The notes under the pieces are model-generated. The model saw only the letters and a program-made list of their open reading frames with translations. It was not told the DNA's origin and ran no database searches. DNA of 64,000 nucleotides, from the IMG/VR virus record IMGVR_UViG_3300009093_000040; one strand, 5' to 3'. Source of the stretch: a virus. Lineage: Duplodnaviria; Heunggongvirae; Uroviricota; Caudoviricetes. Made by a program: the position numbers and the translations under genes. This document shows, piece by piece, positions 2,994-39,024 of this stretch; within the stretch, counting starts at the first letter, position 1, and the number at the start of each line of letters is the position of its first letter.

Positions 2994-3737
2994 TTATCCT
3001 AAGAATTTTTGTCCTGATTCTGCAATACGTTTAATTTGTTCTGGATCTGTAAAATCTTTAATTTTTTCATTAATTGTACAAATAGATTTAATCATATTTA
3101 CAAATAATCGAGCAATGGCTTCTGTATATTCTATTTCTTTAACCTCACTTGAACTATTCGGAGCCATGTGAACGACTGAACATAACCATTCTAATTCAGG
3201 TTTATTTTCACAATCATCTGCATCTACTAATTCCTTTTCTACTTTTATTTTACCACTTTTAAATTTATATACTTTTTTAAAATAAGGTTTAACATATACT
3301 TCTAAACTATAGTTACCCATATTATTAGTATCTAATCTACTATTTCCAGAATACCATTTATAATTTTCCGTTTTTGTAAATTTATGTCTACCGTTTGGGA
3401 CTATGTTTTTATCTGGATCTAAACAATAAGAACAAGCCGTGGATATTTGATATTCTATAATTACTGTATCACTAATTAATGTTTTAGTCATATAATCTTT
3501 ACACATATCAAGAACCTTTTTGTTTAATTCAGGTAAACTACTTGCTTCAAAAAACCCATGTTTTCTTTGTAAATTATATCCCATTTTAAAACCAGCTGCG
3601 ACGAATAAAGCTACTATATTATCAGGTAACATTGTAGTAAAACTACCATCAAAATTTACATATACCTCATAGCTAAATTGAAATTCATTTCGTTCAGATC
3701 CATGTAAACATACTTTTTCTGTTTTTAATCTTCCCAT
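2994..3737 (-). CDS. Hypothetical protein
   Basis: 247-aa ORF in operon. Confidence 0.7.
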   Translation of the reverse strand: MGRLKTEKVCLHGSERNEFQFSYEVYVNFDGSFTTMLPDNIVALFVAAGFKMGYNLQRKHGFFEASSLPELNKKVLDMCKDYMTKTLISDTVIIEYQISTACSYCLDPDKNIVPNGRHKFTKTENYKWYSGNSRLDTNNMGNYSLEVYVKPYFKKVYKFKSGKIKVEKELVDADDCENKPELEWLCSVVHMAPNSSSEVKEIEYTEAIARLFVNMIKSICTINEKIKDFTDPEQIKRIAESGQKFLG

Positions 3738-4122: not shown

Positions 4123-5071
4123 TTTGAAGTAGTTTTTTCATTAAGTTTTTACCATTACAGTGTACAACCCATCCTTTATAAGCAGCAACCGAGGATGTTC
4201 TGTAATTTCTTTTCAACATTTTTGCAAAACGTTTTTTGATTCGTTTTCTAAGTAAAATATGAGTGTGGTAGAATTTGTAACCTACAAAATCAATTCCTCT
4301 TGCTTTAACTGGAAATATTTGCCAATTTTTCTTTATCTCTAGTTTTAAATTTTCTCTCAAATAAGCTGATATTTCAAAAAATAACTCTCTAAGGTGTTCT
4401 TTACTATGAGATAAAATTACTATATCATCAGCATATCTAAAATAATGTTTTACTTTTTTATTTTCTTTAATCCGGTGATCAAAATATGCAAGATAAAAAT
4501 TAGCAAAATATTGTGAAAGATAATTACCTATGGGAACACCGGGTGCAGAATCTATTATTTCGTCTAAAAGATTTAGTAAATCTTTATCTTTAATTTTTCG
4601 ACGTAATAAAGTTTTCAAAATCTCATGGTCGATATTAGGATAAAATTTTCTTATATCTAATTTTAAACAGTATTGAGTGCCTTCTACATCTAATAATGAT
4701 TTTCTAACTGCACGTAAAGCAGCATGAATTCCTTTGTTTTTTATACAACTATAAGTGTCGCTTGTAAATGTTGAAACAAATACAGGTTCCAAAAAATTCA
4801 TGATTGCATGATGAAGTATTCTATCTGGAAAATAAGGAAGGCGAAATATTTCACGTTCCTTTGGATCATAAATTTTAAAAACACTATAAGGAGATGTTTT
4901 ATAAGTTTTATTTACCAACATTTCATTCAGCTTTAAAATATTTTCATCACGCATTTTATCATGCTTAATTACTCCTGCTTGAAATTGCTTACCTTTTCTA
5001 GCTTTTTTATCAGCTAACAATAAGTTTTCAATAGTGCAAATATTTTGAAATATATCTTTTATTCGTTTCAT
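4100..5071 (-). CDS. DGR reverse transcriptase
   Basis: LKLDIRKFYPNIDH, GVPIGNYLSQ (DGR-type GxxxSQ) and YFRYADD catalytic motif; about 323 aa from ATG 5071 (track start 5089 is TTG). Confidence 0.95.
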   Translation of the reverse strand: MKRIKDIFQNICTIENLLLADKKARKGKQFQAGVIKHDKMRDENILKLNEMLVNKTYKTSPYSVFKIYDPKEREIFRLPYFPDRILHHAIMNFLEPVFVSTFTSDTYSCIKNKGIHAALRAVRKSLLDVEGTQYCLKLDIRKFYPNIDHEILKTLLRRKIKDKDLLNLLDEIIDSAPGVPIGNYLSQYFANFYLAYFDHRIKENKKVKHYFRYADDIVILSHSKEHLRELFFEISAYLRENLKLEIKKNWQIFPVKARGIDFVGYKFYHTHILLRKRIKKRFAKMLKRNYRTSSVAAYKGWVVHCNGKNLMKKLLQNEKRLNT

Positions 5072-5140
5072 TTTTTCCTTTGCTTTCAAAGTCGTTTTCG
5101 TCCTTAGCTTACTAACGCCTTCTTTTTAGCATTTATTTTT

Positions 5141-5154
5141 TTGCCTAGAGGCAA
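5141..5154 (-). other. Hairpin in DGR spacer RNA between TR and RT
   Basis: TTGCC-TCTA-GGCAA followed by an A-run on the minus strand. Confidence 0.55.
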
Positions 5155-5185
5155 GGTCTATGTTACTTGTTTTAAAAGCAAATTA

Positions 5186-5246
5186 GGGAGCTGACATAAG
5201 AATTAGTATTCCAATTGTTGTAGTTCGTATAGGAAAAGCTAAATCC
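5186..5246 (-). repeat. DGR template repeat (TR)
   Basis: GGATTTAGCTTTTCCTATACGAACTACAACAATTGGAATACTAATTCTTATGTCAGCTCCC, rich in AAC/AAT, 18 adenines. Confidence 0.95.
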
Positions 5247-5706: not shown

Positions 5707-6162
5707 TTAAGGATTATGGTGTTCTTTATATTCTTCTAAAAATTGAGTTCCGGCATATTTAGCAAGTTCGGCTGATTTTAGGACGAGGAGGGAGCCGACA
5801 GAAGAATCAGTATGCCAATAGTAGTAGTACGCATAGGAAAAGCCATCCCTAGTCATTTTGAAGCATGGTTCATATTTATACTCATTGTTATTATTGTAAT
5901 CAGGTTTCCACCCTTCATTAAGTGCTCTTACTATAATTTTGAGTTTCTTATACGCAATTTCATCTTTTGTGTCTAATGTATTGTTTGTAATCTGTGTAGG
6001 ATTTATACCTAACTCTCGACATGCATCACTAAATGTTTTTACTCTGTCGGTTACTTTTTGTGGAGCTTCCACAATGTTTTTTAAAACGAGTAGTCTTTCT
6101 TCAAAAACGAGTAGTCTTTCTTCAATCGTTTTAATTTCCTTTTTTGCTGCTTCTTTATCCAT
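5707..6162 (-). CDS. DGR target protein 2 (151 aa)
   Basis: Contains VR2; extra N-terminal coiled-coil-like segment. Confidence 0.9.
   Translation of the reverse strand: MDKEAAKKEIKTIEERLLVFEERLLVLKNIVEAPQKVTDRVKTFSDACRELGINPTQITNNTLDTKDEIAYKKLKIIVRALNEGWKPDYNNNNEYKYEPCFKMTRDGFSYAYYYYWHTDSSVGSLLVLKSAELAKYAGTQFLEEYKEHHNP
5790..5845 (-). repeat. DGR variable repeat VR2
   Basis: 56-nt alignment to TR with 9 mismatches, all opposite TR adenines. Confidence 0.95.
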
Positions 6163-6177
6163 TTTTGTTTTTTTTTA

Positions 6178-6612
6178 TTATGTTAAACGTAATTCACTTA
6201 ATCCTAGTTTAATTGCTTCTGCTGGGTGATCAGTTACCCAGCTGTGGCAGTTATGACATCCAGCCATGAAGGTGGTATCATCTAAATAATATTTTCCTCT
6301 CCCTTTTTTATGGTGCACTTCAGTTGCTGTATTGGTACAATCTTTCAAATTCATTTGACAAAAAGGATGATTCTTTAAAAATTGTTTCCTCAAAATGGAA
6401 TACAACACATCTTCCTTTTCTCTTTTTGAAGATCGAGGGCGTATAGGTTTTTGCCTATTGTTTGTTGGTTTACCGTTATTCGTATCGTTTTGGCAACTCT
6501 TACTTTTATAACAGCTTTGGCAATACCTTTTACGCTCCTCGCCTTCAATTACATTTTTCCAGATTGGTTTATCTTTCTGGCAACCGTCACACTTTTTTAA
6601 TTTAATTTTCAT
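6178..6612 (-). CDS. Zn-finger/HNH nuclease-like protein
   Basis: N-terminal CxxC...CxxC; C-terminal ATEVHHKKGRG...CHNCH HNH motif. Confidence 0.7.
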   Translation of the reverse strand: MKIKLKKCDGCQKDKPIWKNVIEGEERKRYCQSCYKSKSCQNDTNNGKPTNNRQKPIRPRSSKREKEDVLYSILRKQFLKNHPFCQMNLKDCTNTATEVHHKKGRGKYYLDDTTFMAGCHNCHSWVTDHPAEAIKLGLSELRLT

Positions 6613-18042: not shown

Positions 18043-18350
18043 AAAAAGCCCCTACTATTATTCGGGGCTAATTGTTTACGCTGCTAAACGTTCTCTGCGT
18101 TTAGAAGTGCGGCATGCGTTTCTGTAATCAGAAAGGCTAACCACTTTTGCTTTGTTGTCTTTTATCTTTTCGTATTTCTATTTCCTATAACTACCACACC
18201 CTGTCAAAACCGGTCGAGCCCATAGTTTGTGCCTTGTGCAAAACAAGGACTAATAAACAATCAGGTAACTACGCCACAACTGCTATTTGTGGACCCGGAG
18301 GGATTCGAACCCTCGTCCAAAAGCGCTGTTAAAGAACGTCAAACAAAATA
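18043..18350 (-). ncRNA. ssrA: Circularly permuted (two-piece) tmRNA
   Basis: The 3' acceptor piece GGAC-GAGGG-TTCGAAT-CCCTC-CGGGTCC-A (18316-18290) precedes the 5' piece GGGCTCGACCGGTTTTGACAG (from 18221); G3.U70 pair; a frame ending LAA-stop (TAA 18078-18076); terminator AGCCCC/GGGGCT-TTTT; TACATTTG promoter at 18363-18356. Confidence 0.8.
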
Positions 18351-34483: not shown

Positions 34484-34515
34484 TTTGGTGAATTAAAATT
34501 TAAAATATATCTTTG
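34484..34515 (+). promoter_or_regulatory. Promoter P1 of tRNA block 1
   Basis: TTTG (34484-87)-N20-TATCTTTG (34508-15), matching the Bacteroidota sigma-A consensus. Confidence 0.8.
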
Positions 34516-34522
34516 TCCCATC

Positions 34523-34600
34523 ATGAAAGTAAAAAATTTATATAGTCTTCTATCGTTGAGTTATTCGTTACCAAGCGATGAGGGGATTACTATGAGTTAA
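34523..34600 (+). CDS. Leader peptide 1 (Leu/Ser/Tyr sensor) MKVKNLYSLLSLSYSLPSDEGITMS
   Basis: 25-aa ORF between promoter and terminator; 12 of codons 6-18 are L, S or Y. Confidence 0.85.
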   Translation: MKVKNLYSLLSLSYSLPSDEGITMS

Positions 34601-34627
34601 ACTTTAAAATTTTAGTTTGAACAAGTT

Positions 34628-34662
34628 AAACCCTCAGCGAAACACTGGGGGTTTTGCTTTTT
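34628..34662 (+). terminator. Attenuator terminator 1
   Basis: AAACCCTCAG-loop-CTGGGGGTTT then TGCTTTTT; the 5' arm CCCTCA can alternatively pair with TGAGGG (34579-84). Confidence 0.85.
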
Positions 34663-34664
34663 AT

Positions 34665-34749
34665 GCCCAGTTGGTGAAATTGGACAGAGACACGCCAGAC
34701 TTAGGATCTGGTGCTTTAATGCATGAGGGTTCGAGTCCCTCACTGGGTA
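34665..34749 (+). tRNA. tRNA-Leu(TAG)
   Basis: Cloverleaf, CCAGA-CTTAGGA-TCTGG, long variable arm. Confidence 0.9.
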
Positions 34750-34760
34750 CATAATAAAAT

Positions 34761-34848
34761 GCGTGAGTGGTGCAGATAGGCTGAGACACAACGGACTTAA
34801 AATCCGTGCGATAAGTTCACATCGTGGGTTCGAATCCCACCTCGCGTA
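34761..34848 (+). tRNA. tRNA-Leu(TAA)
   Basis: ACGGA-CTTAAAA-TCCGT, long variable arm. Confidence 0.9.
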
Positions 34849-34853
34849 CAAAA

Positions 34854-34940
34854 GGAGAGTAGGCAAATAATGGTTTGTTGCACCGCACTGCTAACGCGGC
34901 TCATGTAAAAGTGATGAGGGTTCGAGCCCCTTGCTCTCCG
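34854..34940 (+). tRNA. tRNA-Ser(GCT)
   Basis: Loop CTGCTAA, long variable arm, G73. Confidence 0.9.
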
Positions 34941-34946
34941 CAATAA

Positions 34947-35029
34947 GGAAGGGGTCCGAATGGACGAGGAAACTGTCTTGAAAACAGCTGGTCGTAATTG
35001 GCTTGGGGGTTCGATTCCCTTCTCTTCCG
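34947..35029 (+). tRNA. tRNA-Ser(TGA)
   Basis: Loop CTTGAAA, long variable arm, G73. Confidence 0.9.
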
Positions 35030-35040
35030 CAAAATTTAAT

Positions 35041-35113
35041 GGGAGTATCATCACCAACGGTAAGTATTCAGTCTGTAAAACTGCTAATCTAGGTTCGATT
35101 CCTAGTACTCCCA
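35041..35113 (+). tRNA. tRNA-Tyr(GTA), short variable arm
   Basis: GGGAGTA/TACTCCC acceptor, loop CTGTAAA, canonical T arm, weak D stem. Confidence 0.75.
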
Positions 35114-35168
35114 CAAAAATTTCCAACTAGTTGCAACCGGTTGGAATAAAAAAAATTATTTTTTTTTG

Positions 35169-35198
35169 TTTGTATATTAAAAATAAAGTTTACATTTG
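35169..35198 (+). promoter_or_regulatory. Promoter P2 of tRNA block 2
   Basis: TTTG (35169-72)-N18-TACATTTG (35191-98). Confidence 0.75.
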
Positions 35199-35218
35199 CA
35201 GAAGTTAAAAACTAGAAA

Positions 35219-35320
35219 GTGCAAAAACAAATCGTCATAACAGGAATTTGGAATATGGAGAATACCGCGGGTAAAAGAGACTGTGCGTATGGGGCTTCTG
35301 CTTTTCGTTTTAGAGATTAA
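35219..35320 (+). CDS. Leader peptide 2 (13-amino-acid sensor) (M)QKQIVITGIWNMENTAGKRDCAYGASAFRFRD
   Basis: GTG start after an A-rich stretch; codons 5-23 use only and all of the 13 amino acids of the downstream tRNAs. Confidence 0.8.
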   Translation: MQKQIVITGIWNMENTAGKRDCAYGASAFRFRD

Positions 35321-35344
35321 AATTTAAAACATAAAAAGGTAAAG

Positions 35345-35377
35345 GAGCCCGGCACAAAATGTCGGGTTTTTTGTTTT
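35345..35377 (+). terminator. Attenuator terminator 2
   Basis: AGCCCGGCA-CAAAA-TGTCGGGTT then T-tract; GGAGCCC can alternatively pair with GGGCTTC (35292-98). Confidence 0.85.
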
Positions 35378-35406
35378 AAGACGTTCTTTGATTAAAAAAT
35401 AAATTA

Positions 35407-35479
35407 GCTGGTGTAGCTCAAGTGGCAGAGCGGGTGCCTTGTAAGCATCAGGTTGGGGCTTCGATCGCCTCCGTCAGCT
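35407..35479 (+). tRNA. tRNA-Thr(TGT)
   Basis: GGTGC-CTTGTAA-GCATC cloverleaf. Confidence 0.9.
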
Positions 35480-35543
35480 CAGTGATTCGTCCCCATAAAG
35501 GCAGATATAGTACGGGGACTGCATTAGAATCCAATTTATTAAT

Positions 35544-35616
35544 AGCGATATAGCACAATTGGTGGTGCAAGCCTCTCATGATGGCTAGGTTGACAGTTCG
35601 AGTCTGTCTATCGCCA
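35544..35616 (+). tRNA. tRNA with CAT anticodon (Ile2 or Met)
   Basis: AGCCT-CTCATGA-TGGCT; A1.C72 mismatch; isotype not resolvable by eye. Confidence 0.75.
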
Positions 35617-35621
35617 CATAT

Positions 35622-35757
35622 GCGTCGGAAACATTGACGGTGATGTATGCAGGTTCTTTTTGAATTTGTAAGGTGTGATAATTTTACAAAGGAGATGCTT
35701 AGGAATAATCAACCTAAGTTTGAGTTGGCAAAGCAGGTTCGAGTCCTGCCTGATGCA
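35622..35757 (+). ncRNA. tRNA-shaped RNA with multibranched insert replacing the anticodon loop
   Basis: Acceptor GCGTCGG/CTGATGC, D arm ACAT/ATGT, T arm GCAGG-TTCGAGT-CCTGC; about 80-nt insert with TTTGTAA/TTACAAA and CTTAGG/CCTAAG hairpins. Confidence 0.7.
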
Positions 35758-35760
35758 CGA

Positions 35761-35834
35761 GGGGAAGGTCGTTGGTTCGAATCCAACATTGCCGCTGAAA
35801 GGTGGCGATTAGCTCAGCTGGCTAGAGCAGCCCC
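35761..35834 (+). ncRNA. Circularly permuted tRNA-like module with GAAA-capped acceptor stem
   Basis: 3' half (AGGTC-GTTGG-TTCGAAT-CCAAC-ATTGCCGCT) precedes GAAA, then the 5' half (GGTGGCGAT-TA-GCTC-AGCTGGCTA-GAGC-A-GCCCC). Confidence 0.75.
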
Positions 35835-35839
35835 GCGTT

Positions 35840-36142
35840 ATTTGAAATATTGGTTGAGTGTAGTTACTACAGAAAGTCGGTGAGAAAAAGAATCTGCGAG
35901 ATTTGACCCGATGAAATAGAAACTTTGAACGAAATTCAATTTTGCTCCTGTTGATTGATTTTCTAGTATGTCTTCAGAAGTTGATAAAACTTTCAGGGGT
36001 GGTACCAGATCGAAAAGCACGAAAGTTTAATTGTATTAAGAGTAGTTTAATGAGACTTTCTTAGGATATTTTTTCTGTACGGGAAAAAGAAAATATGCAA
36101 ACGTACACGCGTATTCTACAAAAAACACTCAACCAAACAAAT
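35840..36142 (+). ncRNA. Large structured ncRNA domain (GOLLD/ROOL-like candidate)
   Basis: 12-bp closing helix TTGGTTGAGTGT (35850-61)/ACACTCAACCAA (36125-36) enclosing several hairpins; lies in a phage tRNA array. Family assignment unverified. Confidence 0.55.
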
Positions 36143-36217
36143 TGGTAAATAGCTCAGCCCGGTTAGAGCGCCACGCTGATAACGTGGAGATCGATGGTTC
36201 AAATCCATTTTTACCAA
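36143..36217 (+). tRNA. tRNA-Ile(GAT)
   Basis: CCACG-CTGATAA-CGTGG. Confidence 0.9.
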
Positions 36218-36220
36218 CAT

Positions 36221-36296
36221 TGCGGGATAGAGCAGCGGTCAGCTCGTGTGGCTCATAACCATAAGGTCGGAGGTTCGAATCCTTCTCCCGCTACCA
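36221..36296 (+). tRNA. tRNA-fMet(CAT)-like, CCA encoded
   Basis: Unpaired 1:72, GAGC/GCTC D stem as in initiators, loop CTCATAA; lacks the three anticodon-stem GC pairs. Confidence 0.8.
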
Positions 36297-36298
36297 AT

Positions 36299-36370
36299 TC
36301 CTCCTTAGCTCAGAGGCAGAGCGCCGCCCTGTTAAGGCGAGGGTCGATGTATCGTAATCATCAGGAGGAG
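36299..36370 (+). tRNA. tRNA-Asn(GTT)
   Basis: Loop CTGTTAA; atypical T loop ATCGTAA. Confidence 0.85.
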
Positions 36371-36374
36371 CAAT

Positions 36375-36447
36375 GGCTCGTTAGGGGAGCGGAGTCCCTG
36401 CTACACTGTCACTGTAGAGACCATGGGTTCAAATCCCATACGAGCCG
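36375..36447 (+). tRNA. tRNA-Asp(GTC)
   Basis: CTACA-CTGTCAC-TGTAG, G73. Confidence 0.9.
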
Positions 36448-36452
36448 CATAT

Positions 36453-36525
36453 GCACTGGTAGCTCAATTGGCAGAGCGTTGGTCTCCAAAACCAAAGGTT
36501 GTAGGATCGTTGCCTGCCCGGTGTG
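36453..36525 (+). tRNA. tRNA-Trp(CCA)
   Basis: TTGGT-CTCCAAA-ACCAA; T loop ATCGTTG. Confidence 0.85.
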
Positions 36526-36537
36526 CAAAAAAAAGAA

Positions 36538-36660
36538 ATGATGAAAAATAAAAAAGAAAGTGACGAACCTTTTGAGCGAATTTGCTCGGTTCGTCTAAAG
36601 GTTAGGACGTTAGGTTTTCAACCTAAAAATATGGGTTCGATGTCCCGTACCGAGTACTAA
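36538..36660 (+). CDS. Putative regulatory mini-ORF overlapping tRNA-Glu (MMKNKKESDEPFERIC...)
   Basis: A-rich start context; Glu codons lie in the strand that pairs with tRNA-Glu nt 1-12; runs through the tRNA to TAA. Confidence 0.45.
   Translation: MMKNKKESDEPFERICSVRLKVRTLGFQPKNMGSMSRTEY
36584..36656 (+). tRNA. tRNA-Glu(TTC)
   Basis: TTAGG-TTTTCAA-CCTAA. Confidence 0.85.
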
Positions 36661-36664
36661 AATC

Positions 36665-36738
36665 GCAGGTGACGCATAAGTGGTGGTGCGCCAGCCTTCC
36701 AAGCTGGAATAGATTCGGTTCGATCCCGAATACCTGCA
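36665..36738 (+). tRNA. tRNA-Gly(TCC)
   Basis: CCAGC-CTTCCAA-GCTGG. Confidence 0.9.
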
Positions 36739-36743
36739 CACAT

Positions 36744-36791
36744 GCCGAGTTGAAAGGGAACTCACAGTGGGAGCACTGCCCCTCGGCTCCA
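36744..36791 (+). ncRNA. 48-nt acceptor-stem mini-RNA ending in T-CCA
   Basis: GCCGAG/CTCGGC-TCCA enclosing a CAGTG-GGAG-CACTG hairpin; no T loop or anticodon. Confidence 0.45.
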
Positions 36792-36794
36792 ATT

Positions 36795-36867
36795 GGTTCC
36801 ATGGGTGAGTGGATATAACTCAAGGTCTGCAAAACCTTGTACGCTGGTTCGAATCCAGCTGGGACCT
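36795..36867 (+). tRNA. tRNA-Cys(GCA)
   Basis: AAGGT-CTGCAAA-ACCTT, U73. Confidence 0.9.
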
Positions 36868-36875
36868 CTAGTAAT

Positions 36876-36950
36876 GCGCTCTTAGCTCAGGTGGTTAGTA
36901 GCAGCTCACTCATAATGAGCAGGTCGGTGGTTCAAGTCCATCAGGGCGTA
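36876..36950 (+). tRNA. tRNA with CAT anticodon (elongator Met or Ile2)
   Basis: GCTCA-CTCATAA-TGAGC. Confidence 0.85.
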
Positions 36951-36964
36951 CTGAAAATATAAAT

Positions 36965-37037
36965 GGGTTGTCATGTTCCTTGGCTGGCGAGAATGATTTG
37001 CAATCACTCTGGAAGAGTTCGAAACTCTTACGATCCA
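36965..37037 (+). tRNA. tRNA-Ala(TGC)
   Basis: Loop TTTGCAA; G3.U70 Ala identity pair; weak D arm. Confidence 0.8.
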
Positions 37038-37041
37038 CAAT

Positions 37042-37116
37042 ATCTGCATAGCTCAGTTGGTTCAGAGCGCTTGCCTTACAAGCAAAAGGTCGTTGGTTCG
37101 AATCCAGCTGCGGATA
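37042..37116 (+). tRNA. tRNA-Val(TAC)
   Basis: CTTGC-CTTACAA-GCAAA. Confidence 0.9.
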
Positions 37117-37133
37117 CTTAAAATAAAAACCAC

Positions 37134-37196
37134 ATGCTCCTGATTAGGAAATATAAAATAGTTTTTGCTGTTCTTCGAAAGAGGAAGGGTAGATGA
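37134..37196 (+). CDS. Putative Lys/Arg leader peptide MLLIRKYKIVFAVLRKRKGR
   Basis: 20-aa ORF with 4 Lys and 4 Arg codons (3 AGR), ending 7 nt before tRNA-Lys; A-rich AAAACCAC-ATG start. Confidence 0.55.
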   Translation: MLLIRKYKIVFAVLRKRKGR

Positions 37197-37203
37197 TTTA
37201 TAT

Positions 37204-37275
37204 TCCCTCGTGGCAAACAGGTGTAGGCAGTAGACTTTTAATCTATAGGGTCCGGATCGTTACCGGACGGGGGAA
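37204..37275 (+). tRNA. tRNA-Lys(TTT)
   Basis: GTAGA-CTTTTAA-TCTAT; T loop ATCGTTA. Confidence 0.85.
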
Positions 37276-37281
37276 CTTTAC

Positions 37282-37656
37282 ATGAGTAAGACTAAGAATA
37301 AAAAGCTCGGTATGAATGTTAGTACCGCGAATAATAGATTAAGAAAAAAACTTCTTTTTCATTTTGCTAAACTTTTAGGTTTAGATGATTGTTACAGATG
37401 TCATAAGAAGATAAAAAACCTTGAAGAATTTTCTATAGAGCATAAAGAATCTTGGATGAGTTCTAAAAATTCTTTGGATAAATTTTTTGATTTAGATAAT
37501 ATTGCTTTTTCTCATTTGATTTGTAACATTAAGTTTGAACGGATTAAAACAGGAGTAAAACACCCTTCGCATAGGGCATATAACCAAGGGTGTAGATGTG
37601 ATGGTTGTAAGAATGTAGAAAAAGAACGTAGAAGGAGTCAACGTCAAAATAAATAA
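37282..37656 (+). CDS. HNH endonuclease
   Basis: CYRC...FSIEHKESW...DNIAFSHLICN. Confidence 0.75.
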   Translation: MSKTKNKKLGMNVSTANNRLRKKLLFHFAKLLGLDDCYRCHKKIKNLEEFSIEHKESWMSSKNSLDKFFDLDNIAFSHLICNIKFERIKTGVKHPSHRAYNQGCRCDGCKNVEKERRRSQRQNK

Positions 37657-37662
37657 AATTTT

Positions 37663-37736
37663 GGTTCTATAGCTCAACTGGATAGAGCACCAGCCTTCTA
37701 AGCTGGGGGTTCTTGGTTCGAATCCAAGTAGGATCA
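37663..37736 (+). tRNA. tRNA-Arg(TCT)
   Basis: CCAGC-CTTCTAA-GCTGG. Confidence 0.9.
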
Positions 37737-37757
37737 CAAAAAAAAATAAAAATAAAT

Positions 37758-37788
37758 TTTGTAGTGTAAAAAACTATTTATAGATTTG
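37758..37788 (+). promoter_or_regulatory. Promoter P3 of tRNA block 3
   Basis: TTTG (37758-61)-N19-TAGATTTG (37781-88). Confidence 0.8.
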
Positions 37789-37792
37789 TCGC

Positions 37793-37873
37793 ATGAAAAA
37801 TATTACTTTACATCAATTTCCGTTTCAGTTTCGCCCGGTAGGAGCGAAGGGGAATGGTTGTATCCGGATGTAA
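37793..37873 (+). CDS. Leader peptide 3 (His/Gln/Phe/Pro/Arg sensor) MKNITLHQFPFQFRPVGAKGNGCIRM
   Basis: 26-aa ORF; codons 7-15 read HQFPFQFRP. Confidence 0.85.
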   Translation: MKNITLHQFPFQFRPVGAKGNGCIRM

Positions 37874-37897
37874 ACTAAAGTTTATCAAAGATATTCG

Positions 37898-37932
37898 AAG
37901 CCCCTTCTGAAAAGTTGGGGCTTTTGTTTTTT
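37898..37932 (+). terminator. Attenuator terminator 3
   Basis: AAGCCCC...GGGGCTT then TTGTTTTTT; CCCCTTC (37901-07) can alternatively pair with GAAGGGG (37846-52). Confidence 0.85.
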
Positions 37933-37941
37933 GAAATATTT

Positions 37942-38014
37942 CGAGATGTAGTTCAGTTGGTAGAATACGTGCTTTGGGAGCATGGGGTCGTCGGTTCGAG
38001 TCCGGTCATCTCGA
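37942..38014 (+). tRNA. tRNA-Pro(TGG)
   Basis: CGTGC-TTTGGGA-GCATG, C1-G72. Confidence 0.9.
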
Positions 38015-38017
38015 CTA

Positions 38018-38165
38018 AATTGTTGAAACGGGGTAGCGCCGTTCTTAGCGTAATCGCGTATGGTCCCATTGAGTTGGGGACAATAAGTCCATACGGTAAA
38101 GGCTGTCAAAAATGGGGAAGAGAAATCTTAGTAAGAAGGTTTACCGATGCAAGTTCGGAACAATT
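38018..38165 (+). ncRNA. Unassigned structured RNA (about 150 nt)
   Basis: Closing AATTGTT/AACAATT; internal CGTATGG/CCATACG, TTCTTA/TAAGAA and a CCGA-TGCAAGT-TCGG T-arm-like hairpin. Confidence 0.5.
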
Positions 38166-38171
38166 TAATTT

Positions 38172-38243
38172 GGAGCCATAGCTCAGTAGGTAGAGCAGCA
38201 GACTGAAAATCTGCCCGCACTGGTTCGATTCCAGTTGGTTCCA
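38172..38243 (+). tRNA. tRNA-Phe(GAA)
   Basis: GCAGA-CTGAAAA-TCTGC. Confidence 0.9.
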
Positions 38244-38304
38244 CTTTTATTTTTTTTTTTTGAATCTAAATTATAGATTCAAAATTTATTTTTATTTTTG
38301 TACT

Positions 38305-38703
38305 ATGAAATTATGTACAACATGTAAAATAGAAAAAGACGAAAGTGAGTTTAATAAAAATGAAAGGCAAGGAATTCAAAGTAAGTGTAGGTCTTGTAAC
38401 AGTGAATATCTCAAAAATCATTATAAAAACAACCGAAAATATTACATAGATAAGACAAAAAATAGACGTAAAAGTATAAGAAAATTTATTAATTCTTTGA
38501 AATTAAAATGTGTACGATGCCCTGAAAATCATATAGCTTGTTTAGATTTTCATCATCTATCGGATAAAGATATAAACATTGCTGACCTTGTTAATTCGGG
38601 AGCATCAAAAGAAAAAATATTGCAAGAAATTTCTAAATGTGTTGTTCTTTGTTCAAATTGTCATAGAAAACTTCACTATAATGAAAGAAAAATTGTCTCA
38701 TAG
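38305..38703 (+). CDS. HNH endonuclease
   Basis: CxxC repeats, CLDFHH...ISKCVVLCSNCHRKLHY; ATG 38305 after TATTTTTG; stop lies inside tRNA-Gln. Confidence 0.8.
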   Translation: MKLCTTCKIEKDESEFNKNERQGIQSKCRSCNSEYLKNHYKNNRKYYIDKTKNRRKSIRKFINSLKLKCVRCPENHIACLDFHHLSDKDINIADLVNSGASKEKILQEISKCVVLCSNCHRKLHYNERKIVS

Positions 38704-38765
38704 TGTAAAGGCAACATGTCTGGTTTTGGACCAGAAGATTACAGGTTCGACCCCTGTTGAGATAA
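38694..38765 (+). tRNA. tRNA-Gln(TTG)
   Basis: TCTGG-TTTTGGA-CCAGA. Confidence 0.9.
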
Positions 38766-38767
38766 CT

Positions 38768-38840
38768 GGGGCTTTTCGTCTAATGGTTAGGACGCTTGCT
38801 TGTGGAGCAAGAAATTTCGGTTCGAATCCGTGATAGCCCC
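38768..38840 (+). tRNA. tRNA-His(GTG)
   Basis: G-1/C73, CTTGC-TTGTGGA-GCAAG. Confidence 0.9.
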
Positions 38841-38849
38841 CAGACATAT

Positions 38850-38921
38850 TCCAACGTCGTCTAATGGACAGGACACAGGGCTACGGACCTTGGGGTGGGA
38901 GTTCGATTCTCTCCGATGGAA
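38850..38921 (+). tRNA. tRNA-Arg(ACG)
   Basis: CAGGG-CTACGGA-CCTTG. Confidence 0.9.
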
Positions 38922-39024
38922 CTTATTATCAACAAAACATTAAAATAGTATTTTGTGTGTTAAAACTATTTTTTGACATCAAAAATATTATTATATACAT
39001 TTGGACAATCTTAAACCAACAAGA

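What the first reader, a model, noticed from the sequence alone, without database searches (positions are those of the whole stretch)
35191..37736. Attenuator 2: one leader sensing 13 amino acids at once
Codons 5-23 (ATC GTC ATA ACA GGA ATT TGG AAT ATG GAG AAT ACC GCG GGT AAA AGA GAC TGT GCG) contain none of L, S, Y, H, Q, F, P and every amino acid of the 15 tRNAs downstream, including ATA (read by a lysidine CAT tRNA). GGGCTTC (35292-98) pairs with GGAGCCC of the terminator 5' arm, and an ATAC-CGCGG/CTGTG-C-GTAT hairpin could act as protector. Classical attenuators sense one to three amino acids through repeats; a mostly single-copy multi-input OR gate would be a new logic, probably tuned for complete loss of a tRNA (cleavage) rather than mild starvation (inference).
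Basis: partly seen in the sequence, partly recalled or inferred. Interest (0 to 1): 0.88.

Follow-up and report, generated by a model that had tools for sequence, protein, structure and literature searches.

The report
Thirteen-amino-acid leader gating phage tRNAs
A soil phage puts 15 of its tRNA genes behind a 33-codon test gene that names each of their 13 amino acids, followed by a switchable transcription stop, so it probably makes these tRNAs only when one of those codons is read slowly.

Summary
At 35191-35377 there is a Bacteroidota-type promoter, a GTG-started 33-codon ORF and an intrinsic terminator. The tRNA genes begin 30 nt later, with no room for another promoter.

- **Amino-acid match:** Codons 5-23 use exactly the 13 amino acids of the 15 tRNAs at 35407-37737. 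The chance of this per site is about 1e-6 to 7e-8. It is the only such run in the six-frame translation of the 64-kb window.
- **Same design nearby:** The two neighbouring tRNA blocks have their own matched leaders (Leu/Ser/Tyr, and His/Gln/Phe/Pro/Arg).
- **Same design elsewhere:** It recurs in Cellulophaga phage phi4:1 and many uncultured phages. Leader content follows tRNAs that move between blocks: own-block amino acids were present in 73 of 74 cases (Fisher p 1e-13). The match holds down to Arg/Leu/Ser codon boxes (p 3e-9).
- **Best reading:** This is a ribosome-mediated attenuator working as a multi-input OR gate.
- **How it differs from trpL:** The free RNA is predicted to fold as the antiterminator. 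The terminator is predicted only while a ribosome covers codons 23-32.

Nothing has been tested experimentally. Seven literature searches found no description of this control. Earlier unchecked notes of this scan report the same design on other phage DNA. It is a new variant of a known kind.

The parts
35169..35198 (+). Promoter P2, Bacteroidota type: -33 TTTG (35169-35172, a second copy at 35165-35168) and -7 TAcaTTTG (35191-35198)
   Evidence: Pattern TTTG-N(15-23)-TAnnTTTG. On the + strand of the array this bipartite motif occurs only in front of the three leaders. The consensus itself is taken from established knowledge of Bacteroides promoters.
35219..35320 (+). Leader ORF of 33 codons plus stop. 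It starts at GTG, and an in-frame TAG at 35213-35215 excludes an earlier start
   Evidence: No Pfam family matches the peptide. The same aaaGTGCAA start is seen in phi4:1 leader B and in the first leader of L182.
35219..35230 (+). Codons 1-4 (GTG CAA AAA CAA), an A-rich spacer that is not part of the matched run
   Evidence: The sister leaders likewise start with 3-6 unmatched codons, MKVKN and MKNITL.
35231..35287 (+). Sensor run, codons 5-23. It holds 13 amino acids: 8 occur once, Thr, Gly, Asn and Ala twice, and Ile three times (ATC, ATA, ATT). AGA is used for Arg-UCU
35262..35290 (+). Hairpin H1 inside the sensor (ATACCGCGG / CTGTGCGTAT). It does not sequester the antiterminator and may be a pause hairpin (inference)
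35291..35305 (+). Antiterminator 5' strand (region 2), which is codons 25-29 of the ORF
35306..35331 (+). Inner A/U hairpin of the antiterminator domain. It contains the stop codon at 35318-35320
35333..35350 (+). Antiterminator 3' strand (region 3). It overlaps the terminator 5' arm at 35346-35350
   Evidence: The antiterminator domain 35291-35350 folds at -19.5 kcal/mol.
35346..35377 (+). Intrinsic terminator: a 9-pair stem (35346-35354 with 35360-35368) followed by a T run to 35377
   Evidence: The consensus scan did not list it, because two of its pairs are G-U. tRNA-Thr starts 30 nt after the T run, and no promoter motif lies between them.
35407..37737 (+). Regulated block of 15 tRNA genes: Thr, CAU, Ile, CAU, Asn, Asp, Trp, Glu, Gly, Cys, CAU, Ala, Val, Lys and Arg-UCU. 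A Y-RNA-like element and an HNH-like ORF are interspersed
36965..37038 (+). Atypical tRNA-Ala(UGC) with G3:U70 and an unusual D arm. It is needed for the 13 of 13 match
34484..34664 (+). Sister unit 1: promoter, leader ORF 34523-34600 with the run LYSLLSLSYSL, and a terminator, in front of Leu, Leu, Ser, Ser and Tyr
37758..37935 (+). Sister unit 3: promoter, leader ORF 37793-37873 with the run HQFPFQFRP, and a terminator, in front of Pro, Phe, Gln, His and Arg-ACG

Best explanation
The element is a ribosome-mediated (leader-peptide) transcription attenuator. It controls one transcription unit of 15 phage tRNA genes and works as a multi-input OR gate.

**Proposed sequence of events**
1. Transcription starts at P2, just after 35198.
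2. A ribosome initiates at GTG 35219 and reads four spacer codons.
3. It then reads 19 sensor codons that together name every amino acid, and for Arg the codon box, served by the tRNAs downstream.

**When all these codons are decoded fast.** The ribosome follows the polymerase onto codons 23-33. It covers region 2 (35291-35305) while regions 3 and 4 are being made. The terminator at 35346-35377 then forms, and the tRNA genes are not transcribed.

**When any one cognate charged tRNA is scarce.** The ribosome stops somewhere in codons 5-22 and region 2 stays free. Region 2 pairs with 35333-35350, which removes the terminator's 5' arm, and the polymerase reads into the tRNA block. The new tRNAs relieve the stall and close the gate, giving negative feedback.

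**Untranslated RNA.** The free RNA is predicted to be antiterminated, so failure to initiate would also open the gate. This fits a block that carries initiator-like tRNAs.

**Shown:** the sequence anatomy, the set identity, its statistics and its recurrence in other phages.
**Predicted:** the alternative folds.
**Inferred:** translation from the GTG, stalling, the effect on termination, and the physiological trigger. The trigger could be codon demand of phage genes, host tRNA loss or cleavage, or amino-acid starvation.
For: **Anatomy**
- A promoter, a short ORF and a terminator lie directly in front of the tRNAs, with no room for another promoter.

**Match and its statistics**
- The sensor covers the 13-amino-acid set exactly. 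The chance per site is 1e-6 to 7e-8, and the run is unique in the 64 kb.

**Sister leaders in the same array**
- Both match their own blocks and not each other's. The longest own-set runs are 11, 19 and 9 codons with full coverage, against partial coverage for the other blocks.

**Covariation across phages**
- In phi4:1, G001 (IMG/VR contig UViG_3300009873_000002) and L106, the tRNAs for W, C, F, H, Q and P sit in different blocks, and the leaders follow them.
- Own-block amino acids are present in the own leader in 73 of 74 cases, against 58 of 110 for other-block amino acids (Fisher p 1e-13).
- In a census of 192 short ORFs followed by a terminator inside tRNA-array gaps, 22-29 pass the match score. 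Only 0.1-0.5 are expected when amino-acid labels are permuted.

**Codon-box specificity**
- Arg, Leu and Ser boxes that have a tRNA in the block are used in 40 of 40 cases. Boxes without one are used in 5 of 18 (p 2.7e-9).
- In this window AGA appears in leader 2 with Arg-UCU, and CGC in leader 3 with Arg-ACG.

**Conserved geometry**
- In 10 of 11 leaders the ORF segment most complementary to the terminator's 5' arm lies a few codons after the sensor run. The stop codon lies 19-29 nt before the terminator.

**Folds of leader 2**
- The antiterminator domain folds at -19.5 kcal/mol and the terminator at -15.4.
- The duplex between the ORF's 3' part and the terminator arm is -18.5 kcal/mol, against -11.7 +/- 2.5 for shuffles; 14 of 1000 shuffles do as well.
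- In a ribosome-footprint model the basal terminator stem has probability 0.01-0.23 for stalls at codons 5-21 and 0.87-0.88 at codons 23-32.

**Feasibility of single-codon sensing**
- A his-leader system reports the reading speed of single codons in vivo (PMC4046918, abstract seen).
Against: - There are no RNA, ribosome-profiling or reporter data for this or any related unit.
- GTG initiation is inferred only. It rests on the match of codons 5-12 (I, V and W occur nowhere else in the sensor) and on the same aaaGTGCAA start in two other leaders.
- tRNA-Ala falls below the default detection thresholds of ARAGORN and Rfam.
- About half of the sensor codons pair with the phage anticodons only by wobble. 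GTC, ACC and GGT need four-way reading by a U34 tRNA.
- The predicted default-on fold is not shared by the analogous multi-input leaders. Equilibrium P(terminator) is 0.90-0.95 for phi4:1-B, G001-2 and L106-2.
- Equilibrium models cannot capture co-transcriptional kinetics.
- With a ribosome on the stop codon, the model lets the antiterminator re-form (P(term) 0.26-0.44). The steric argument against this is mine and was not computed.
- One stall at a single-copy codon may give only a small response unless the tRNA is severely depleted.
Confidence: 0.75

Rival explanations
1. The leader is translated and matched to the tRNAs, but its output is not intrinsic-terminator readthrough. Stalled or passing ribosomes could instead control processing, stability or folding of the polycistronic tRNA precursor, or Rho access. 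The hairpin plus T run would then only end a constitutive short transcript.
For: The equilibrium models show no switching for several analogous leaders: phi4:1-A, G001-1 and L116 stay at P(term) 0.9 or above at every ribosome position. Block 2 contains further structured spacers.
Against: No promoter motif lies between the terminator and tRNA-Thr, so the tRNAs can only be reached by readthrough. In 10 of 11 leaders a segment complementary to the terminator's 5' arm sits just behind the sensor, with a constant distance from stop to terminator. This is the geometry expected for attenuation.
Confidence: 0.1
2. The RNA senses tRNAs directly, like a T-box or another riboswitch, and the ORF is incidental.
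For: The regulated genes belong to the translation apparatus, as is typical for T-boxes. There is a terminator/antiterminator pair.
Against: No Rfam family matches at gathering score or at a significant E-value. A direct RNA sensor for 13 different tRNAs within 150 nt is implausible. The match is seen only in one reading frame and is delimited by start and stop codons in every phage.
Confidence: 0.03
3. It is an ordinary small protein gene or spurious ORF with its own terminator, and the amino-acid match is chance.
For: The start is GTG. The peptide has no known family, which neither supports nor opposes this reading.
Against: The chance per site is 1e-6 to 7e-8, and the run is unique among 177 candidate sets across the whole window. 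The two neighbouring blocks and at least 20 leaders in other phages show the same property, against fewer than 1 expected after label permutation.
Confidence: 0.02
4. The attenuator mainly reports amino-acid starvation of the host, as classical multivalent attenuation does, rather than tRNA abundance or integrity.
For: Any shortage of charged tRNA stalls the ribosome, so the mechanism cannot tell uncharged tRNA from absent tRNA.
Against: Making more tRNA does not cure amino-acid starvation, so the feedback would be futile. The listing is specific to isoacceptor codon boxes, for example AGA against CGC for the two Arg tRNAs in different blocks.
Confidence: 0.1

Closest known systems
Multivalent leader-peptide attenuators of enterobacterial amino-acid operons (ilvGMEDA leader for Ile/Leu/Val, thr leader for Thr/Ile); from established knowledge
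   Same: It has a short translated leader and regulatory codons for more than one amino acid. It has an intrinsic terminator with a competing antiterminator whose 5' strand lies in the 3' part of the ORF. Ribosome position decides the fold.
   Different: It lists 13 amino acids instead of 2-3, mostly as single codons rather than repeats. The regulated genes are tRNAs, not biosynthetic enzymes. There is no 1:2 protector pairing, and the free RNA is predicted to be antiterminated. It uses a Bacteroidota-type promoter with a short A-rich 5' UTR and a GTG start, and it lies in a phage genome. There is no sequence similarity to these leaders.
trpL / hisL / pheL single-amino-acid attenuators (Rfam Trp_leader, His_leader, Phe_leader)
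   Same: The logic is the same: sensor codons, then region 2, then the stop codon, then the terminator. The sister leaders 1 and 3 of this array even show the classical 1:2 hairpin plus terminator in the free RNA.
   Different: Leader 2 has no tandem repeats of one codon. The best Rfam match is Phe_leader at E 1.3 and 17.6 bits, against a gathering score of 55, which is not significant.
pheST (pheM) leader attenuator and T-box riboswitches, which control translation-apparatus genes by tRNA charging status; from established knowledge
   Same: It provides feedback from decoding capacity to genes of the translation apparatus.
   Different: Those systems regulate aminoacyl-tRNA synthetases, each for one amino acid. 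T-boxes bind the tRNA directly, without a ribosome. Here the tRNA genes themselves are the output, and 13 inputs converge on one gate.
Engineered his-leader 'codon speedometer' (PMC4046918)
   Same: It shows that an attenuator can respond to the reading speed of single test codons.
   Different: It is a laboratory construct reporting on one codon at a time. The phage leader is a natural array of single test codons.
   Same: These have the same architecture and the same set-matching rule. Several also list 9-13 amino acids: G001 leader 2, L106 leader 2, L233, phi4:1 leader B and L182 leader 1.
   Different: The sequences cannot be aligned with this leader. Their predicted free-RNA folds favour the terminator. 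None has a published description that I could find.

Membership tests
Leader-peptide (ribosome-mediated) transcription attenuator | A short ORF lies between a promoter and the regulated genes | tested here: met
   P2 motif at 35169-35198 and ORF at 35219-35320
Leader-peptide (ribosome-mediated) transcription attenuator | The ORF carries codons whose cognate aminoacyl-tRNAs relate to the regulated genes | tested here: met
   Exact 13 of 13 set match, unique in the window. Covariation across phages
Leader-peptide (ribosome-mediated) transcription attenuator | An intrinsic terminator lies between the ORF and the regulated genes, with no promoter after it | tested here: met
   Stem at 35346-35368 with a T run to 35377; tRNA-Thr starts at 35407
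Leader-peptide (ribosome-mediated) transcription attenuator | A mutually exclusive antiterminator uses the terminator's 5' arm, and its other strand lies in or near the ORF's 3' part | tested here: met
   35291-35305 pairs with 35333-35350 at -19.5 kcal/mol; 14 of 1000 shuffles pair as well. This is prediction only
Leader-peptide (ribosome-mediated) transcription attenuator | A 1:2 protector pairing makes untranslated RNA terminate (trp-type superattenuation) | tested here: not met
   The free RNA is predicted antiterminated (P 0.97). Hairpin 35262-35290 does not include region 2. This feature defines the trp subtype, not attenuation as such
Leader-peptide (ribosome-mediated) transcription attenuator | The leader is translated, and stalling raises readthrough | not testable with these tools
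   No RNA runs hold the sequence. Reporters, Ribo-seq or Term-seq are needed
Rfam leader families (Trp_leader, His_leader, Leu_leader, Thr_leader, Phe_leader) | A match to the covariance model at gathering score | tested here: not met
   No match at gathering score. The best match is Phe_leader at 17.6 bits against 55, E 1.3
T-box riboswitch | A specifier loop and a conserved T-box sequence, detectable by the Rfam model | tested here: not met
   No T-box match, even at E up to 10

The most novel reading that the evidence does not exclude
Leader 2 may be a default-on sensor of overall translation health, and part of a phage circuit that answers host attacks on tRNAs, such as anticodon nucleases or tRNA depletion. 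Any one of 15 tRNA species, including the initiator read at a deliberately weak GUG start, would keep the gate open when it fails. The phage would then replace exactly the damaged part of the tRNA pool and shut the genes off again once decoding recovers. This would be the first natural many-input attenuator, and the first feedback control of tRNA genes by decoding speed.
Probability: 0.3. Interest if true: 0.9.

Novelty: new variant of a known kind. Interest (0 to 1): 0.8.

Why it matters
How phages regulate their tRNA genes is essentially unknown, and why they carry them is still debated. The usual candidates are codon usage, host shut-off and escape from tRNA-cleaving defences.

A leader that lists the tRNAs behind it suggests the phage measures decoding speed codon by codon and makes tRNAs on demand. 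That turns the debate into a testable circuit. The rule also gives an annotation tool: a leader predicts the content and boundaries of a tRNA transcription unit, and helped here to confirm an atypical tRNA-Ala.

For RNA regulation, a 13-input attenuator built from single codons extends the classical model, which handles at most three amino acids through repeated codons. It also offers a compact natural part for sensing many tRNAs at once.

Tried and rejected
- **RNA evidence:** No RNA holder is listed for the stretch. Only DNA runs from rhizosphere and soil metagenomes hold it, so I did not lay reads.
- **Close relatives for alignment:**
  - The GenBank phage collection shares only tRNA-level similarity.
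  - The upstream 148-aa protein has one IMG/VR relative, which has no tRNAs, and none in metagenome contigs.
  - Eighty relatives found through the 740-aa protein (60-65% identity) have no array within 10 kb. Of five large relatives searched in full, three have no tRNA and two have a single one.
  - For these reasons no nucleotide alignment or base-pair covariation test of leader 2 was possible.
- **HNH-like ORF 37282-37656 as bait:** It returned two loci without arrays.
- **Arrays without leaders:** L132 has a tRNA order like block 2 but is full of endonuclease ORFs and shows no leader design. Many other arrays gave no candidate, so the design is common but not universal.
- **Rejected candidates:** The L167 candidate has no terminator. 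The annotated phi4:1 gp076 is not a matched leader.
- **Equilibrium ribosome-mask model:** It shows switching for window leaders 1 and 2 and L106, but none for phi4:1-A, G001-1 and L116. I treat this as a limit of the model, not as evidence.
- **Duplex test for leader 3:** Not significant; 220 of 1000 shuffles paired as well.
- **Permuted tRNA idea for 35757-35840:** Replaced by a weak YrlA (Y RNA-like) match.
- **Assignment of the three CAU tRNAs:** Assigning them to initiator, elongator Met and Ile2 was not resolved. Two have a 1:72 mismatch, and the third resembles the Ile-GAU tRNA in its arms.
- **Literature:** Seven full-text searches found no account of leader-peptide control of tRNA genes. 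The library lacks most subscription journals.

Full report
**Setting.** The window is AT-rich phage DNA (31-42% G+C) with tail-fibre-like, lysozyme-like and large structural ORFs. It carries a tRNA array at 34665-38922 on the + strand. No whole genome is held for it. DNA runs from rhizosphere and soil metagenomes contain it. Rfam adds a tRNA-Tyr at 35041-35113 that ARAGORN misses at default settings.

**The observation.** The sequence at 35160-35410 reads as follows:
- a -33 TTTG and a -7 TAcaTTTG (35169-35198);
- an A-rich 20-nt stretch;
- GTG at 35219;
- a 33-codon ORF ending at TAA 35318-35320;
- a hairpin at 35346-35368 followed by a T run to 35377;
- tRNA-Thr at 35407.

An in-frame TAG at 35213-35215 excludes an earlier start. 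Codons 5-23 contain I, V, T, G, W, N, M, E, A, K, R, D and C and nothing else.

The tRNAs up to 37737 are Thr, three CAU tRNAs, Ile-GAU, Asn, Asp, Trp, Glu, Gly, Cys, Val, Lys and Arg-UCU. There is also an atypical tRNA-Ala(UGC) at 36965-37038, found only with relaxed ARAGORN settings. It has G3:U70. Its odd D arm defines a family present at 149 sites in phage and metagenome contigs, 117 of which are called tRNA-Ala. I therefore accept it as a gene. With it, the leader's set and the block's set are identical.

**Is it more than chance?**
- With amino-acid frequencies from the window's long ORFs, 19 codons all fall within the set with P = 5e-4.
- Given that, they cover all 13 with P = 2e-3, so the joint probability is 1.1e-6. 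With six-frame frequencies it is 6.7e-8.
- I scanned all six frames of the 64 kb for compact runs that exactly cover any of the 177 amino-acid sets defined by contiguous sub-arrays. The only hits for sets of 8-15 amino acids are at 35231. The 14- and 15-amino-acid supersets extend the same run by the residues that follow.
- The five-amino-acid set F, H, P, Q, R is covered only at 37811.

**Context inside the window.** The array is cut into three blocks, and each has the same front end.
- **Block 1** (Leu-UAG, Leu-UAA, Ser-GCU, Ser-UGA, Tyr) follows TAtcTTTG, an ATG 8 nt later, the run LYSLLSLSYSL, which uses both Leu and both Ser codon boxes, and a terminator at 34628-34664.
- **Block 3** (Pro, Phe, Gln, His, Arg-ACG) follows TAgaTTTG, an ATG 5 nt later, the run HQFPFQFRP with CGC for Arg, and a terminator at 37897-37935.
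- On the + strand of the array, the bipartite promoter motif occurs only before these three leaders.
- Each leader matches its own block best.

**Other phages.**
- **Cellulophaga phage phi4:1 (KC821632).** A duplicated promoter sits in front of two leaders. The first has the run QRLHLQELEQP before Pro, Glu, Gln, His, Leu, Leu and Arg. The second starts aaaGTGCAA, as here, and has the run TKTGITVIDKTKGARA before Ala, Lys, Ile, Gly, Met, Asp, Thr, Val, Arg and Met. A third leader has YNNSNWSFSY before Tyr, Ser, Trp and Phe.
- **A complete 128.8-kb IMG/VR phage (G001).** It has LLLSYCSFWLL before Phe, Tyr, Ser, Trp, Cys, Ser, Leu and Leu. A 34-codon leader whose codons 2-20 name all 13 amino acids of the following 16 tRNAs comes next; it also contains L and A.
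- **L106.** It has LRPLQHSHSLPSYL before Pro, Gln, His, Arg, Ser, Leu, Ser, Ser and Tyr. A 22-codon run then covers 13 of 13 amino acids of the next 14 tRNAs.
- **Covariation.** W, C, F, H, Q and P sit in different blocks in different phages, and the leaders follow them. Over these four phages, own-block amino acids are present in the own leader in 73 of 74 cases, against 58 of 110 for other blocks (Fisher 1e-13; 1e-20 for the first 20 codons).
- **Census.** Among loci fetched through the tRNA-Ala motif and an HNH ORF, there are 192 dereplicated short ORFs followed by a terminator-like hairpin in array gaps. Of these, 22-29 pass the match score with true labels, against 0.1-0.5 on average with permuted amino-acid labels (maximum 4-7 in 200 permutations).
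- **Further multi-input leaders.** These include L233 (10 of 10 in 14 codons) and the first leader of L182, again starting aaaGTGCAA.
- **Codon boxes.** For Arg, Leu and Ser, boxes with a tRNA in the block are used in 40 of 40 cases and boxes without one in 5 of 18 (p 2.7e-9). The leaders therefore list tRNA species, not just amino acids.

**Mechanism.** Across 11 leaders the geometry is constant. There are a few unmatched A-rich codons, then the matched run, then within a few codons the ORF segment most complementary to the terminator's 5' arm. The stop codon follows, and 19-29 nt later the terminator, in 10 of 11 leaders. This is the layout of classical attenuators.

For leader 2:
- The antiterminator (35291-35305 with 35333-35350, enclosing an A/U hairpin) is predicted at -19.5 kcal/mol, against -15.4 for the terminator. 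It dominates the free RNA, with P 0.97.
- Masking a ribosome footprint at each codon gives low terminator probability for stalls at codons 5-21 or 5-22. It gives 0.87-0.93 when the ribosome sits on codons 23-32.
- Any stall in the sensor therefore leaves the default antiterminator in place. Only an unimpeded ribosome that reaches region 2 in time allows termination. This gives an OR gate without needing a 1:2 pairing.
It may pause the polymerase for coupling (inference).
- Leaders 1 and 3 show the classical 1:2 hairpin plus terminator in the free RNA.
- The default-on prediction is specific to this leader, is thermodynamic only, and is not reproduced for the analogous leaders of other phages. 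I hold it with moderate confidence.
- Since the block includes two CAU tRNAs with a 1:72 mismatch (initiator-like), a gate that also opens when initiation fails would make sense (inference).

**Comparison with known systems.** The element works like the multivalent leader-peptide attenuators of amino-acid operons. It differs in four ways:
- the number of inputs (13) and the copy number per input (mostly one);
- the output (tRNA genes);
- the absence of a protector pairing;
- the host context (a phage, with a Bacteroidota-type promoter).

It matches no Rfam leader or T-box model, and the peptide matches no Pfam family. Seven full-text searches found nothing on leader-peptide control of tRNA genes. 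A his-leader system shows that single codons can modulate an attenuator (PMC4046918). Earlier unchecked notes of this scan describe the same design on many other phage genomes, and likewise found no publication. I did not rely on them.

**Verdict.** It is a new variant of a known kind and is experimentally untested.

Noticed in passing
window 35746-35851 (+): Inside block 2 there is a tRNA-like element with a T arm, a closed acceptor-like stem and a D arm in permuted order. It matches Rfam YrlA (Y RNA-like) at E 3.6e-5 and 32.3 bits, below the gathering score of 69. A lone -7-like TAagTTTG lies at 35715 just upstream. It is followed by about 290 nt with long-range complementarity (35852-35862 with 36127-36137).
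   Followed up: partly
window 36965-37038; L106 about 5127-5200; loci L178-L330: This is a conserved atypical phage tRNA-Ala(UGC) with the D-arm motif CATGTNCCNNGGCTGGCGAGA. Default ARAGORN and the Rfam tRNA model miss the copy in the window. The motif is found in 33 viral and at least 119 metagenome contigs, and 117 of 149 sites are called tRNA-Ala.
   Followed up: partly
window 35216-35224; L002 4378-4386; L182 (reverse complement) about 4448-4456: Three multi-amino-acid leaders from different phages start with the same aaaGTGCAA, about 21-23 nt after the -7 motif where a -7 motif is present (the window and phi4:1). Few-amino-acid leaders start with an ATG 4-9 nt after it, so they are nearly leaderless. 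The reason is unknown. The GUG start might sense the initiator tRNA.
   Followed up: partly
L002 (KC821632) 3421-3489, 4381-4464, 6127-6225: The three leaders of Cellulophaga phage phi4:1 are poorly annotated. Leader A is not annotated. Leader B is annotated as gp075 from an upstream TTG that overlaps the promoter. Leader C is not annotated. The annotated gp076 (6473-6574) is not a matched leader.
   Followed up: partly
window 37282-37656 and 38260-38703 (+): Two ORFs that look like homing endonucleases sit between tRNA genes. The first has a weak Pfam HNH match (E 0.004). The second has Cys-pair and HH motifs, no Pfam match, and many relatives inside other phage tRNA arrays.
   Followed up: partly
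window 18076-18350 (-) and 5071-5158 (-): Rfam at gathering score finds a permuted tmRNA (57.7 bits) and an RT-17 RNA (43.1 bits). A phage tmRNA could be relevant to ribosomes stalled on the leaders.
   Followed up: no
window 35118-35170 (+): A hairpin (TTCCAAC ... GTTGGAA) flanked by A and T runs sits between tRNA-Tyr and P2. It is probably the terminator that ends block 1, and it insulates block 2.
   Followed up: no
window 37738-37792: No terminator hairpin follows tRNA-Arg-UCU at the end of block 2. Transcripts from P2 may therefore run into leader 3 and be gated again there.
   Followed up: no
L132 (IMGVR_UViG_3300036760_000302): This array has a tRNA order like block 2 (Thr, Met, Met, Ile, Asn, Asp, Glu, Gly ... 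Cys, Ile, Met, Ala, Val, Lys, Arg). It is broken up by long ORF-bearing gaps and has no matched leader, so the design is not universal.
   Followed up: partly
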